Source of the DNA: Octopus vulgaris
Lineage: Eukaryota
Direction of reading: 5' to 3'
Assembly (NCBI GenBank): GCA_951406725.2
Contig: OX597826.1
Span: 42,036,001 to 42,100,000, forward strand
Length of the DNA: 64,000 nt
Within the stretch, counting starts at the first letter, position 1. Every line of letters begins with the position of its first letter. Both the position numbers and the translations under genes were made by a program. The notes below the pieces were generated by a model. It was not told where the DNA came from. It saw only the letters and a program-made list of their open reading frames with translations, and ran no database searches. Shown in pieces: positions 897-51,658 of this stretch.

Positions 897-1003
897 ATTT
901 CTTACTGAAGAATCTGAGGGCCTGTGGAAGATTGGCTTGATTTAATTTAATCAGGTTAGTTTACCATTAATCAGCAGATGAAACGGTATATCGTATAAGA
1001 AAT
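897..1003 (+). ncRNA. Type I hammerhead ribozyme with 58-nt stem II insert (array 1, copy 3)
   Basis: Stem I ATTTCTTA/TAAGAAAT (8 bp); core CTGAAGA 905-911; stem II ATCTG/CAGAT; GAAA 980-983; stem III ACGG-TATA-TCGT; GUA cleavage triplet ending at 995. Confidence 0.9.
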
Positions 1004-1392
1004 TACAGGGTAAATGTTTTTTAAATTTTCTCCTGGTTTACTGAATTAACTTTTATTTGCGGTTGAAGCTTTGGCTGTTATTTCTAGTGGGTGAATGGCC
1101 TATTATGGCCGTTCCTTTATTGTTGATGTTGAACTTAAAAATGGTCTTTGACTATTTTAATTTTTTCCTACTAGGCCGCTGGTGGCAAAAGAATTCTACA
1201 AAATTTTTTTTTTGCCACCCTATATTGATTAATTATGAATTTTCTGGTTAATTCCGTAATGGAATCGACGGCTTATATTTATTTGCTGCCGATAAATTTG
1301 GCGCGAGTGCGACGATTTGAAAATTTTAGGTCAGATATTATACTTGGCAACGTCGGAAATGCCTCGTGAAAATATCTGTTCCGTCTTGGGCT

Positions 1393-1493
1393 ATTTCTTA
1401 CTGAAGAATCTGAGGGCCTGTGGAAGATATTTAATTTAATCAGGTTAGTTTACCATTAATCAGCAGATGAAACGGTATATCGTATATATAAAT
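1393..1493 (+). ncRNA. Hammerhead ribozyme, array 1 copy 4, 3' strand of stem I damaged
   Basis: Core and stems II/III intact; TAAGAAAT replaced by TATATAAAT. Confidence 0.6.
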
Positions 1494-1617
1494 TACAGGG
1501 TAAATGTTTTTTAAATTTTCTCCTGGTTTACTGAATTAACTTTTATTTGCTATATTGAAGCTTTGGCTGTTATTTCTAGTGGGTGAATGGCCTATTATGG
1601 CCGTTCCTTTATTGATG

Positions 1618-1708
1618 ATATATATATATATATATATATATATATATATATATATATATATATATATATATATATATATATATATATATATATATATATA
1701 TATATATA
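1618..1708. repeat. (TA)n microsatellite between array 1 and the PLE 3' end
   Basis: Direct reading. Confidence 0.98.
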
Positions 1709-1802
1709 AGGAAGTTTACGAAAATAAACAAAAGACGAAGGCAGGTGGAGGACAAACAAACAATTGTATTAGTATGGCGCTCAGGAATAGAAATAAAACA
1801 AG

Positions 1803-46275: not shown

Positions 46276-49200
46276 AATCTGTATTTTTCTTATTTTTTAT
46301 TTGCCCTGTCCGTGTGAGCTAACAATCGTACTGACTTTCATGGTAAGCATGTATTTTCGTGGTTGAAACCTTTTGGATTAACTGGTGCTAGAGTGAGCAA
46401 TATAGTGACCACTCTCTTATATTTATTTTATATTATATATATATATATATATATATATATATATATATATATATATATATATATACATATATACATATAT
46501 ATACACACACACACACACACACATATATATCACATATATATATATATGTATGTATGTATGAATATATAAACTTTTACAGTATGAATATATGCATTTTATG
46601 CAATCTGTCTGGTGTCTAGAAAGGTAAAAATATTATTATTTCAACGTCAATTGAAAACTGTTTTATTATAACGTTTTTAAAAAGGAATGGAATATTTCAT
46701 TATAAGCATATAGTTTATAATAATAATATTGTGGTACGACTATCACTACCCCACATTTTAGTACTACTACTACTACTACTACTACTACTACTACTACTAC
46801 TACAATAGATTATTTCACACGCTATTATACTTCTCGACCGCCATCATAATGTCCAGTTAATTGCACATACGCATGTGCACACGCCATCAGCCCACCACAT
46901 TTAGGCATTCACTTACTTATATCTTCCTTATTATTTATTACTATCACTATTACTGCTTTTATTATTATTATTATTATTATTATTATTATTATTATTATTA
47001 TTGTTATTGTTGTTGTTGTTGTTGTTCTTGGTGGTGGTGGCGGTGCTGCCTTCTGTGTCCTCTTTTATCTGGTTTTGTCAACAGTTCTCTTTCATACTGT
47101 CATGGCGGTACATTCTCCGCCACTCCCGCTCTAACTCACACTCTCCTCCTCTCCCACACTCTCTCCTGCTTTCTCTCCTTTTCGCTCCCCCGTGCCATTT
47201 TATCTTTCATATCCACTTGCCGTTTATATTATTCTTTACAATATATTTGCTATCTGTTCATCATCAGTTTTGCTCTCCACATTTTCTTTCTTCTTCGGTG
47301 GTGGTAGTGGTTTCCTTTTCTTTTCACATTTATTATTATTATTATTATTATTATTATTATCATTATTATTGTTGTTGTTGTTGTTGTTGTTGTTGTTATT
47401 ATTATTATTATTATTATTATTATTATTATTATTATTATTATTATTATTATTATTATTATTATTTATTTTATTTCTCTATTTTCTCGGAGTTGTTTTGCGA
47501 GATTTCTGCGTTTTCTTAGAGTTGTCAGAAATCATTTATACTGGAAGATAGGACGCGACGGGCGGTGAGCGGGGCAGGGGAGTAGATTGAAAAGAAAAAG
47601 AAAAAAAAACTCGGTTAACATGACAAGGACCTAAGATGGCTAGAACTAACCAGCCAGCCAGGAAACCAACCAGCCTACCAGCTCAACCATTCAACAGACA
47701 CTTTTCGGTAAACAGTGAATAACCAACCGTCCATCTACCCCACTACATACCCTACATACCTACCTACCTACCTACCTACCTACCAATCCACCCCTTACAC
47801 ACCCGTTTCTCTAGCTTTTATCATCAATTCTTGTTTGAGATTTCTTTTCACTTTAGTATATATTTCGTCTTAATTTTACTTTTGTTATAGTTTTTTTGCT
47901 GTCTTATTTTATTAATTTTCTTTTGTGATTCGTAGAACACACACACACACATATATATATATACACACGCGCGCGCACAAACTCACATACATTCACACGT
48001 CTACATATATGCACATACATATGTATACACAGAGACGCGCGCACAAAACTGTTATTAGCGTCTGATTTCGTCCCAGATATCTGTAAGGTTTCATACAGTT
48101 CTGTTATATCTCTCTAGGAGTCCCTGCATGTGTGTGTGTGTGTGTGTGTGTGTGTGTGTGTGTGTGTGTGTGTGTGTATGTGTGTGTATGTGTGTGTGCG
48201 TCTGTGTGAGTATGTCTCTGTGAGTATGTCTGTATGTATAAGTGTATGTACACATGAGTATGAGTGCATATATATATATATGAGCATGTGTATGTGAGTG
48301 TGTCTCAGCGTGCACATGTGTGCTTATACTGTAGAGATTCACATATATAAGCAGACAAAATACACATGGCAGTCACATGTCTTTGCCAAACCCACATACA
48401 AACACACACATACACGTATATTCAAATATAGTATATATATATACACACACATATGTTTATGTGTGTATACACACATGTAAATGCATTTATGTATATATAT
48501 ATATATATTTATATATATATATATACATGTTTATGTGTGTATACACATATGTAAATGCATTTATGTATATATATATATATATATATATATATATATATAT
48601 ATATATATATATATACACATATTTATGTATATACGGCTATATATGCATATATATACATATATACATATGCATATGTACATTTGTATTAATGCATATATAT
48701 ATATATATATATATATATATATGCATACATACATATATACATATACACATATGCATTCGATATACAGTCTTTTAACTTAGGATATATATGTACCTTTTTA
48801 TTAGACAGTGAATGCATATATATGTTTACATTTTTATAAAAGCAGTCGAGAGATGCAGACATACAGACTACATATTACGTATAAATGTCAGCGAGGAGTC
48901 GCGAGTTCTGTCCCAACGGGTGCTTATTATATTCTCGCATATAAATATACTTCCTTTAAAGCTAATTTTTGATAAAGCAAGAATGCTTCCTCTACAGGTC
49001 GCATGACACGCTAGAAATAAGCTGTGAAATGTTTTCAACTTATATCTCACCGTTTCAGAAACAGATATGTTGCTTTTCCTATGGAAAAAGCGATTGCGAC
49101 TTCCGGTATATTGGCAATGGGGACAATTGATTGATAAACTTACATAACGTTAAAGCTCAGAATGTGTTTTATTATCAATTTTTAGAGGAAAATTAATGTA

Positions 49201-50520
49201 ATTTTCGTCACCACCATACAAAACTACATTAGTGTAGGAAATTCCGACGGTAGAAAGAAATTTAAAAGACCCTATTCTTGGGCACTTTCACAGGAGAAAA
49301 TGGCGTGATGGTTTCAGCTGGAGTACTTTTGATCATAATCCTTGCTCTTTTAGCTAAAAACAAACAACGACATCGACAGCAGTAACAACAATAGCTACAA
49401 CAAATTTAGGGATGAATTCACATTGACTTTGTGTTTTAAGATTTTCGCTTCTCAATCACTTAGTTCCGGGTTCGTACCTGATGTACGTCACGCTTAACCT
49501 GGGACTTGTAGCTTCGAGTTGACAAATGCATTTGGTAAGCAGAAACCCATCGTATGATCATCAACGCACACGTTTAGCTTGGACTAGATGTTGGTCTCGC
49601 GATCAAAAAGTCATAGTATGAGTACTCGCCGAGTTCTCACGAAGTGTTTTCTCCTTCGTGCTTTCATATATTTGATGTTCCTGTGAGTTCCCTGTGGGAG
49701 GACCGAGAGGCTATGAGCACGCGATTGACTGGGGGCTTCAGAGATTTAGCAAAAGCATGGTATATGCTACCAAGTCCTACTCGCTTGCGAAAGACAACTA
49801 TGAATACAAACTGTGAACGATCGTCCTCTTGTAGTGCGTATTCTTCATATAAAAATTTGGTATTCTCCATTCTTGTTCATGTTATATACTCCGAATTTCT
49901 TGAAATTCTTCTAAACGATATCAGGATATACTTATCATACACCGGTATGTTAATTCTACTTGAATTTAATGGTATCTGATAGTTTGATATAATTTATCAA
50001 GTTTGCTTAAAAATAGAGTGCTTTCTAGATATCAAATCCCTTTTACCTATTTTATCTATCTATCTATCTATCTATCTATCTATCTATCTATCTATCTATC
50101 TATCTATCTATCTATCTATCTGTCTGTCTGTCTGTCTGTCTGTCTATCTATCTATCTATCTTTCTATCTATCTATCTATCTATCTATCTATCTATCTATC
50201 TATCTATCTATCTATCTATCTATCTATCTATTAATCTAAATTTGATATCGTTTATCTTGTAGTTTTTTTCGGTTATTGAACTGCGGTCATATTGGGATAC
50301 GGCCTTGAAAGGATTATTTGAACAAATCGACCCAAGTAATTATTAATTTTTAAGTCTGGTACACACACTCACACAAACACACAGAACAGACGTATACACA
50401 CAGACATACAGACACATACACACACATACATGCATACATACATACATACATACATACATACATACATACATACTTACATACATACATACATACATACATA
50501 CATACATACATACATACATA

Positions 50521-50934
50521 CTCTTTACTCTTTTACTCTTTACTCTTTTACTTGTTTCAGTTATTTGACTGCGGCCATGCTGGAGCACCGCCTTGAATCG
50601 AGCAACTCGACCCCGGGACTTATTCTTTTGTAATCCCAGTACTTATTCTATCGGTCTCTTTTGCCGAACCGCTAAGTAACGGGGACATAAACACACCAGC
50701 ATCGGTTGTCAAGCAAATGCTAGGGGGACAAACACATGCACACAAACACGCATATATATATATATATATATATATATATATATACATATATACGTCTACC
50801 AAATCCACTCACAAGGCTTTGGTCGGCCCGAGGCTATAGCAGAAGACACTTGCCCAAGGTGCCGCGCAGTGGGACTGAACCCAGAACCATGTGGTTGGTA
50901 AACAAGCTACTTACCACACAGCCACTCTTGCGCC
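50521..50934 (-). mobile_element. SINE family A
   Basis: Near full match to 5083-5489 with (AAAGAGTA)n tail. Confidence 0.85.
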
Positions 50935-51570
50935 TATATACATATATATATATATATATATATATATATATATATATACATACATACATGCATATATATA
51001 TATATATATATATATATATATATATATATATATGCACATACATGTAACAGTAGATGAGTTGGGTTTTCAAAGTTGTTTGCTTAAAAGTTGCGCGTTGCTG
51101 ATTTTCAAAACATATTATTTTAAATTGATATTTTGATGTTTATTAACCTTGTTTTCATTCATTGGCTAATTAACATGTATCAAAAGTAAAATGTTTTGAA
51201 AAGCAGCACCAAGAGACTCTAAAAGCTGTAAGGCTAAGTGTAAATAATTGTATCACGGAGTAAACAATTTTTGAAAATCAGTTCTTTTACTTGCTCTTAT
51301 AGTATCTAATCATAGTCTACTCTACTTTATGTACTGAGTACCATCGTCTCACATTTTGTCAACAAATTTATATGTATACGCATATCTCTGTGTGCGTATA
51401 TGCGTGTGTGTATATGTGTGTATATGTGTGTGTGTGTATGTGTGCATATATGTACATACATGCATGCATACATACATACATACATACATACATACATACA
51501 TACATACACACATGCATACCTACAAATATATATATATAATCAAAATAAGGAACAAGGATATCCAGAAGTA

Positions 51571-51658
51571 ATGCAGCACGATCGTTTCAAGCAACTCCAT
51601 TTAATTGAACACCGCAATCATTACATCGATTTAAATGCAGAGCAATCGTCAGCTGCAT
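51571..51658 (-). ncRNA. Degenerate long-stem-II hammerhead near (TA)n
   Basis: Stem I ATGCAG/CTGCAT; CTGACGA; GAAA; palindromic stem III ACGATCGT; position 17 is G and stem II base is unpaired, so probably inactive. Confidence 0.6.

What the first reader, a model, noticed from the sequence alone, without database searches (positions are those of the whole stretch)
897..51658. Recurring HHR subtype: minimal palindromic stem III with a long variable stem II insert
Seen in six different sequence contexts: stem II inserts of 58 (897), 18 (6719), 43 (16965), ~27 (21288), 43 (46192) and ~55 nt (51571), with stem III mostly palindromic (ACAATTGT, ACATATGT, ACGATCGT, ACGGTATATCGT, ATCGGTCCGAT). Stem I sequences all differ yet pair, which is covariation visible within one window. 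Established: palindromic stem III lets minimal PLE HHRs cleave as dimers, and these usually have a short stem II. Inference: the insert may supply tertiary contacts or a protein-binding site, and length-limited descriptor searches would miss it.
Basis: partly seen in the sequence, partly recalled or inferred. Interest (0 to 1): 0.75.

Follow-up and report, generated by a model that had tools for sequence, protein, structure and literature searches.

The report
Long-armed hammerhead ribozymes of Penelope retroelements
Six different jumping-repeat families in this window carry a predicted self-cutting hammerhead RNA whose second arm has grown into a long paired rod; tens of thousands of such motifs lie in this animal genome, out of reach of the published search pattern for these ribozymes, and they likely cut only in pairs, though cutting is untested.

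Summary
All six sites have a type I hammerhead layout with a palindromic stem III and a 26-68-nt stem II region (5 strict hits vs 0.01 in shuffles); copies at 21288 and 51571 are worn (51571 has G at the cut site). The 'insert' is not a loop but an irregular paired rod, with compensatory changes and a G-U bias in two lineages. The 16965 motif is the 3' end of autonomous Hydra-like Penelope elements (19 of 20 ORF loci carry it); 897, 6719 and 46192 sit in ~500-bp non-coding tandem/inverted repeats with Penelope-type ends. Genome-wide, one pattern gives 39,409 matches with 36-65-nt stem II (control 1,639) against 9,168 with 6-20 nt; about 13 of 30 checked look complete. The 2014 descriptor (loop 2 up to 10 nt) cannot see them. 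A compensatory change at the palindrome centre supports dimer cleavage. No base-paired tertiary contact was found, and a protein-binding role is untested. Short-armed relatives also spread, so the arm is probably a tolerated, stabilising extension. New variant of a known kind; this scan noted similar long arms before on other DNA.

The parts
897..1003 (+). Family A hammerhead: stem I 8 bp, core 905-911, stem II region 912-979 (68 nt, paired rod), palindromic stem III 983-994, predicted cut after 995
1..1619 (.). Family A insertion: ~493-bp non-coding units, minus-strand array (1-762, further hammerheads with cores at -633 and -137) back to back with a plus-strand array (759-1619; second copy, core 1401, damaged), ending at (AT)n
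6719..6776 (+). Family B hammerhead: stem I 5 bp, stem II region 26 nt (4 bp, 2x2 loop, 4 bp), 11-nt palindromic stem III; part of a ~503-bp unit family, this copy truncated, between (TA)n runs
16965..17048 (+). Family C hammerhead: stem I 6 bp, stem II region 53 nt, 8-nt palindromic stem III; 5'-truncated 3' end of a Hydra-like Penelope element
   Evidence: 99% identical copy lies 283 nt behind GIY-YIG coding sequence in L114
16886..17085 (.). Family C insertion: short inverted piece of the element's tail plus the truncated 3' end, between (AT)n runs
21288..21352 (+). Family D hammerhead, worn: stem I 6 bp, stem II region 36 nt with a bulged base, 6-nt stem III; inside an insertion with inverted arms 21015-21175 / 21361-21506
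46192..46275 (+). Family E hammerhead: stem I 4 bp + mismatch + 2 bp, stem II region 51 nt, 8-nt palindromic stem III
44233..46432 (.). Family E insertion: minus-strand array of 535-bp units (cores at -45659, -45123, -44588) joined at 45748 to an inverted plus-strand copy, (AT)n on both sides
51571..51658 (-). Family F hammerhead, impaired copy: stem I 6 bp, stem II region 57 nt, 8-nt palindromic stem III, G instead of A at position 17

Best explanation
These motifs have the full layout of type I hammerhead ribozymes, sit at the 3' ends of Penelope-like retroelements and of short non-coding repeats likely derived from them, are predicted to cut RNA only when two tandem copies pair their palindromic stem III, and carry a long base-paired stem II that likely serves as a tolerated, stabilising arm rather than a catalytic part. 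Shown: the layout, the pairing and covariation of the arm, the link of family C to RT/GIY-YIG genes, tandem and inverted arrays in (TA)n with two fixed 3' ends. Inferred: a read-through transcript of two or more units forms the dimer and cuts after position 17; multimeric or circularised RNA is then copied by a PLE reverse transcriptase that starts at one of two sites 130-290 nt behind the ribozyme and runs through the cut site, giving arrays with random 5' ends. Inferred: stem II can be lengthened because it points away from the core; selection keeps it paired, which would pre-fold the junction in an AU-rich RNA that shows no loop-loop contact. Each lineage grew its own arm.
For: Motif vs shuffles. 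Genome-wide excess. PLE link: 19 of 20 ORF loci carry the family C ribozyme 206-821 nt behind the ORF end, with a 54-56-nt arm in 18 of them. PLE-type ends: 34 of 37 family A 3' ends and 20 of 23 family B 3' ends fall in two clusters about 100 nt apart, as two RT start sites would give (PMC11167929); 105 5' ends are uniform over the unit, KS p=0.57. Dimer: stem III hairpins 0 to -0.2 kcal/mol, duplexes -6.4 to -17.5 (worn D copy -3.1); a family A subfamily changes both centre bases of the palindrome, a pair that exists only in the dimer (1,772 genomic matches, control 0). Arm under RNA-level selection: 6 of 11 proximal pairs change on both sides in family C; 7 of 12 proximal/middle and 2 of 8 distal pairs in F-like sequences; G-U outnumbers A-C 29:3 and 43:11. 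Arm dispensable in general: a canonical Hydra family and three Neptune-type families of this genome have 10-18-nt stem II, as do published Hydra hammerheads; lengths run from 13 to 88 nt over 34 clusters.
Against: No cleavage is shown, and 0 of 105 5' ends lie within 3 nt of the predicted cut: compatible with circular templates but equally with RNA that is never cut. In vitro, the Anolis PLE did not need cleavage for insertion, and 8 of 9 Xenopus retrozyme dimers did not cleave. No coding partner was found for A, B, D, E or F. Arm length is tightly held within lineages and family C keeps invariant bases in the distal part, more than a merely tolerated arm needs. Insert folding z-scores are modest (median -1.4; 11 of 30 below -2). 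C, D and F showed no tandem copies within the 3-kb loci examined (0 of 25, 25, 30), so most genomic copies have no dimer partner in cis.
Confidence: 0.6

Rival explanations
1. The long stem II is a family-specific handle for the element's RT/endonuclease protein (or a host protein) that switches the ribozyme on and lets non-coding derivatives recruit the enzyme.
For: The Anolis PLE hammerhead cleaves only with the element's protein (PMC11167929). Arm length stays 54-56 nt in 18 of 19 ORF-linked family C copies across subfamilies; invariant distal bases in family C; covariation to the tip in F-like sequences.
Against: No shared sequence or length between families. Short-armed Hydra and Neptune-type families are also highly amplified. 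Single copies with deletions in the arm exist (L196).
Confidence: 0.22
2. The first internal loop of the arm, about 4 bp from the core, takes the place of canonical loop 2 and docks on stem I, giving a tertiary-stabilised fast ribozyme; the rest of the arm is a cap.
For: The uninterrupted proximal helix is 3-5 bp in 19 of 30 families (mode 4) and stem I mostly 5-6 bp, the canonical geometry. Families B and E have 4 bp then a 2x2 purine-rich loop.
Against: The scan demanded at least 3 bp, and an irregular helix gives such run lengths anyway. In family C the helix runs 10-11 bp with one weak position. No loop-to-flank Watson-Crick complementarity: p=0.53 (5' flank) and 0.07 (3' flank) against other families' flanks. 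Non-canonical contacts were not testable.
Confidence: 0.12
3. The motifs no longer cut; they are folded RNA signals (for RT pausing, packaging or promoter structure) or fold-back by-products of PLE copying that kept a hammerhead core by descent.
For: No 5'-end pile-up at the cut site. Low or absent activity reported for PLE hammerheads. Many copies have only 2-3 bp of stem I (15 of 30 below 4 bp). One Hydra-like subfamily has C at core position 4.
Against: In family A subfamilies the free positions N7 and H17 vary while the catalytic positions do not. Palindromic stem III recurs in unrelated families (26 of 30). G-U bias argues against DNA fold-back repair as the source of pairing.
Confidence: 0.06

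Closest known systems
Hammerheads of Hydra-clade Penelope-like elements (Craig et al. 2021, PMC8557442; read: passages, section 11, supplement parts 1, 2, 19, 24, 25)
   Same: Type I, 4-7-bp stem I, palindromic 8-10-nt stem III, frequent U-U at the base of stem II, 3' UTR of an RT + C-terminal GIY-YIG ORF, (TA)n targets.
   Different: Listed Hydra stem II regions are about 12-26 nt; here 26-68 nt (to at least 88 elsewhere in the genome). The coding partner of family C lacks the CxCx5C linker. The same table lists one long case, spike-moss PLE-X1_sMoe (9 bp + 35-nt loop), marked as deviating, so a long arm has a precedent.
Minimal hammerheads (min-HHR) of metazoan PLEs (Cervera and de la Pena 2014, PMC4209133; read: first 20,000 of 32,700 characters and passages of supplement file 2)
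   Same: In pLTRs, mostly solo truncated copies, inverted pairs, palindromic stem III, predicted dimer cleavage, no recognisable tertiary contact.
   Different: min-HHR stem III is 4 nt and helix II 7-8 bp with a loop of at most 10 nt; these have 6-12-nt stem III and a multi-segment rod.
Animal non-LTR retrozymes (Cervera and de la Pena 2020, PMC7229834, passages; Li, Clavereau and Pollet 2026, 10.64898/2026.07.22.740005, first 30,000 of 40,384 characters)
   Same: Families A, B, E: non-coding tandem units, one type I hammerhead per unit, low GC, dispersed arrays; proposed to be non-autonomous PLE derivatives.
   Different: Units are 492-535 bp (170-400 nt in the 2020 paper; 51-972 bp in the 2026 one). 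The ribozyme has a long arm instead of a 4-bp stem with docking loop. Inverted back-to-back arrays and two fixed 3' ends tie them directly to PLE copying. Circular RNA not shown here.
PLE-associated dimer-cleaving hammerhead variants (Lunse, Weinberg and Breaker 2017; paper not held, seen only through reviews PMC6765202 and PMC6466107, passages)
   Same: Palindromic short stem III, dimer cleavage, PLE association.
   Different: Whether its alignments hold long stem II members could not be checked.

Membership tests
Type I hammerhead ribozyme | Core CUGANGA, GAA, A15.1-U16.1, H17 (not G) | tested here: met
   Met in 5 of 6 named copies; the 51571 copy has G17, 34 of 38 copies of its family have A
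Type I hammerhead ribozyme | Three helices around the core, open at stem I | tested here: met
   covariation; stem III forms only as a duplex
Type I hammerhead ribozyme | Stem I - stem II tertiary contact of fast natural hammerheads | tested here: inconclusive
   No Watson-Crick loop-flank signal; non-canonical contacts not testable
Type I hammerhead ribozyme | Self-cleavage after position 17 | not testable with these tools
   No raw RNA reads offered; 0 of 105 insertion 5' ends at the site
PLE pLTR hammerhead | Lies behind an RT + GIY-YIG ORF on the same strand | tested here: met
   Family C only: 19 of 20 ORF loci. Not shown for A, B, D, E, F
PLE pLTR hammerhead | Tandem and inverted 5'-truncated copies, two 3' ends (tail), microsatellite targets | tested here: met
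   3'-end clustering tested for A, B, E only
Hydra clade of PLEs (family C partner) | DKT and RW(K) motifs, C-terminal GIY-YIG without CCHH, CxxC and CxH around E and N, (TA)n insertion | tested here: met
   ORFs printed (RWL in place of RWK); motif checks; definition
Hydra clade of PLEs (family C partner) | CxCx5C linker before the endonuclease | tested here: not met
   Absent from the 4 ORFs printed and from 19 of 20; present in the canonical family L436. Filed as Hydra-like
Hydra clade of PLEs (family C partner) | Placement in the RT phylogeny | not tested
   No reference RT set was available as tool-given sequence
min-HHR descriptor of Cervera 2014 | 4-nt stem III region; loop 2 of 3-10 nt | tested here: not met
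   Descriptor; motifs
Non-LTR retrozyme (families A, B, E) | Non-coding tandem repeat with a type I hammerhead in each unit | tested here: met
   Tandem copies in 22 of 30 A, 11 of 12 E, 4 of 25 B loci (overlapping loci counted separately); no PLE protein match over the units
Non-LTR retrozyme (families A, B, E) | Expressed as circular RNA | not testable with these tools
   Only contigs were offered; a back-joint is expected from tandem DNA as well
Naiad clade | 3' end of an N-terminal-endonuclease PLE | tested here: not met
   Family C partner has a C-terminal endonuclease; 2 of 8 'half-core' Naiad consensus ends read by eye show no long-armed type I fold

The most novel reading that the evidence does not exclude
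In this octopus-like genome the dominant Penelope hammerhead is an overlooked long-armed class, present in dozens of independent families and tens of thousands of copies, in which the stem II rod is the docking site for the element's own reverse transcriptase: it would make cleavage protein-gated and be the cis signal by which 500-bp non-coding retrozymes capture a Penelope enzyme.
Probability: 0.22. Interest if true: 0.72.

Novelty: new variant of a known kind. Interest (0 to 1): 0.45.

Why it matters
Counts of animal hammerheads rest on descriptors and models with short stem II. Here a single pattern suggests roughly 17,000 complete-looking and up to about 38,000 core-plus-stem-III motifs in one length bin alone (13 of 30 checked times 39,409; excess over control), none reachable by the 2014 descriptor. 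The role of hammerheads in Penelope elements is an open question (dispensable in vitro, protein-assisted in one case). This genome offers young, intact families with short and long arms side by side, including within the Hydra group, so arm swaps make the question directly testable. The ribozyme kind, the dimer mechanism and the PLE link are known; the arm length and its scale are what is new.

Tried and rejected
Rfam: 0 gathering hits in the window; no hammerhead among the 150 of 513 rows shown at E<=10; 1 of 20 long-arm loci gave a sub-threshold Hammerhead_1 hit, 24.3 bits vs 34; a short-arm array gave none either. Naiad idea (the 'HHR_half_core' cases of Craig 2021 are these motifs): five short stem III motifs of the window had 0 occurrences in that supplement; Naiad_Ovul and Naiad_Esco ends read by eye did not fit; 6 of 8 not read in full. 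Family F as a Neptune 3' end: seen in 1 locus, but 0 of the other 24 loci with that endonuclease region carry F; rejected. Family D as 3' end of the Hydra fragment in L138: that fragment has its own short hammerhead; rejected. B and E next to Neptune-type ORFs (L149, L150): separate insertions at shared microsatellites. Walking upstream of F gave no coding match. Pseudoknot test negative. 5' ends at the cut site: none. Expression: no RNA holder listed; four contig sets of guessed-RNA runs cover family A and show a 495-nt back-joint that tandem DNA also explains; not used as evidence. Pfam gave no family for two Hydra-like ORFs, and RVT_1 plus weak GIY-YIG for a Neptune-type ORF. The distal hairpin of family C was left out of the pair count because of alignment gaps. 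Literature searches found no paper describing long stem II hammerheads in cephalopods or PLEs as a class; Lunse 2017, Arkhipova 2017 and de la Pena 2010 are not held, file 1 of the Cervera 2014 supplement was not searchable, and the Perreault 2011 descriptors and the 2026 preprint's supplements were not seen; any of these may hold long-armed examples.
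Full report
Setting. The window is non-coding, microsatellite-rich animal DNA (36% GC) from G000, 2.8 Gb in 227 contigs. I call it octopus-like because a decayed endonuclease fragment in L254 closely follows, by eye, the Hydra-1_Obim protein printed in the Craig 2021 supplement.

Observation. All six motifs exist. I name them A (897), B (6719), C (16965), D (21288), E (46192) and F (51571, minus strand). Whole stem II regions are 68, 26, 53, 36, 51 and 57 nt. A strict type I descriptor with stem II span up to about 150 nt gives 5 hits (A three times, B, C) against 0.01 per shuffle in 200 local dinucleotide shuffles; a relaxed one gives 11. 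F fails both in this copy (two U-U pairs at the stem II base, G17); 34 of 38 family copies have A17. The six families share no BLAST similarity.

The insert is a helix. Each folds as an irregular rod with internal loops. Over 30 family representatives with spans above 20 nt, 62% of bases pair and the median z-score is -1.4 (19 below -1, 11 below -2). In 13 of 17 family C representatives (dropped: two truncated in stem I, one near-duplicate, one with a deletion), 94% of cells pair and 6 of 11 proximal stem II pairs change on both sides; the distal hairpin was not counted because of gaps. In 14 F-like sequences (window copy, 7 of 8, 6), 88% of cells pair; 4 of 5 stem I pairs, 7 of 12 proximal/middle and 2 of 8 distal pairs change on both sides; slid controls give 32-55%. 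These sequences are related and were picked by core motifs, so the shuffle counts are not probabilities. G-U outnumbers A-C 29:3 and 43:11, which points to selection on the RNA of this strand rather than DNA fold-back repair. In family A a subfamily changes a basal stem II pair G-C to A-U in phase with a change of both centre bases of the stem III palindrome; that variant has 1,772 genomic matches, control 0. The centre pair exists only in a dimer; stem III hairpins are worth 0 to -0.2 kcal/mol, duplexes -6.4 to -17.5 (worn D copy -3.1).

What carries them. First-look candidates in G000 number 1,448 (A), 1,762 (B), 2,524 (C), 63 (D), 1,488 (E) and 1,988 (F) (not copy numbers). The best A, B and E matches are 99-100% identical, so these are young. 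A, E and B are non-coding units of about 493, 535 and 503 bp; tandem copies were seen in 22 of 30, 11 of 12 and 4 of 25 loci, inverted copies in 15, 7 and 5; C, D and F showed none in tandem and 6 of 25, 3 of 25, 9 of 30 inverted (overlapping loci counted separately). 3' ends fall in two clusters about 100 nt apart and run into (TA)n (A: 19 and 15 of 37; B: 11 and 9 of 23; E: 7 and 4 of 11), the PLE tail signature explained by two RT start sites (PMC11167929, passages). 105 5' ends are uniform over the units and none lies within 3 nt of the predicted cut: the template was multimeric or circular, and cutting in vivo is neither shown nor excluded.

Family C has a coding partner. An RT fragment beside a fetched locus led to families with open frames up to about 900 aa. 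In 19 of 20 fetched ORF loci a C-type hammerhead lies 206-821 nt behind the ORF end, with a 54-56-nt arm in 18. A copy 99% identical to the window's lies 283 nt behind endonuclease coding sequence in L114. The proteins show DKT, RW, a C-terminal GIY-YIG region without CCHH, and CxxC/CxH motifs, as defined for the Hydra clade, but lack the CxCx5C linker; I file them as Hydra-like. A canonical Hydra family of the same genome has the linker (L436), and related loci from the same search carry 10-14-nt stem II; three Neptune-type families have 13-18 nt. No partner was found for A, B, D, E, F.

Scale. For one stem III class (8 nt, AC....GT), whole-genome pattern counts against the reversed pattern are: span 6-20 nt 9,168 vs 714; 21-35 nt 7,307 vs 767; 36-65 nt 39,409 vs 1,639; 66-95 nt 12,936 vs 1,216. 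The pattern tests no pairing, bins can share a site, and abundant repeats can match by accident. Of the first 30 matches in the 36-65 bin, 26 have a palindromic stem III, 15 a stem I of 4 bp or more, 13 both; of the first 20 in the 66-95 bin, 12, 5 and 3. In 400 kb taken at 40 arbitrary places, 19 hits split 9 (7 in one array), 6, 4, 0 over spans up to 20, 21-35, 36-80, 81-150, against shuffle means 0, 0.25, 0.25, 0.42. All loci held sort into 34 clusters with spans from 13 to 88 nt (a sample biased towards long ones). So the long arm is common, variable and of many sequence families, probably of several origins (inference).

Mechanism. Shown: layout, pairing, covariation, PLE-type insertion anatomy, Hydra-like link for C. 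Inferred: dimer cleavage in read-through transcripts; copying from multimeric or circular RNA by PLE RT; the arm as a tolerated, stabilising extension. That stem II tolerates insertions is my recalled background knowledge; natural type II hammerheads with open stem II are documented (PMC3088659, passages), and viral type I hammerheads with a 6-bp helix II cleave well without evident loop contacts (PMC13725137, passages). No Watson-Crick contact between arm loops and flanks was found (p=0.53 and 0.07). Rivals: protein handle (0.22), docking through the first internal loop (0.12), non-cutting relic (0.06).

Comparison with what is known. PLE hammerheads, their palindromic stem III and dimer cleavage are established (PMC4209133; reviews); tandem non-coding derivatives are known as non-LTR retrozymes (PMC7229834; preprint). 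Published Hydra hammerheads match these in stem III but have short stem II; one spike-moss PLE motif with a 53-nt span is listed as deviating. The 2014 descriptor caps loop 2 at 10 nt and stem III at 4 nt, so it misses all six. Rfam misses them but also a short-armed family. Six literature searches found no description of the long-armed form as a class; three key papers were not held. Earlier notes of this scan describe a family-A-like repeat in this genome and oversized hammerheads in another octopus-like genome; they agree but are not independent evidence.

Verdict. Real and far above chance; a new variant of a known kind.

Noticed in passing
window +5754, -16662, -15647, -25081, +25463, -25933, +26721 (positions of CUGANGA): Seven repeat copies in about three families have GAAA or a worn form of it 25-35 nt upstream of CUGANGA, i.e. 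the hammerhead core boxes in reverse order. Earlier notes of this scan describe such re-wired hammerheads in Naiad and HERO elements; the published Naiad_Ovul 3' end shows the same order by eye.
   Followed up: partly
window 29702-29751, minus strand (core at -29745): Short-armed hammerhead (14-nt stem II, 8-nt palindromic stem III), a within-window counterexample to the long form; a similar motif follows a Hydra-type RT fragment in L138.
   Followed up: partly
window 37603-37991: Inverted pair of a further hammerhead-bearing repeat (cores +37902, -37700) with a minimal 4-nt stem III, both copies worn.
   Followed up: no
L181-L200 (G000): Abundant, apparently active Hydra-like PLE lineage with 778-908-aa ORFs that lacks the CxCx5C linker and has a long Asn/Ser-rich stretch before the endonuclease; Pfam finds no domain in it. 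Tandem full-length copies 3,624 bp apart.
   Followed up: partly
L211-L215, L341, L357, L367 (G000): Young Neptune-type PLEs with an upstream ORF1 and short hammerheads carrying core variants (U3-A8 pair, or C at position 4).
   Followed up: partly
L216:2300-4560 (G000): 359-bp tandem plus inverted repeat with a canonical-size hammerhead (4-bp stem II, 6-nt stem III), a classical retrozyme-like family that Rfam also misses.
   Followed up: no
window 38796-39069: Inverted arms of telomere-like (TTAGGG)n repeats around an AT-rich spacer.
   Followed up: no
window 2708-2872, minus strand: Weak match (35%, E=1.6e-4) to a Neptune-type endonuclease region, probably a decayed fragment.
   Followed up: no
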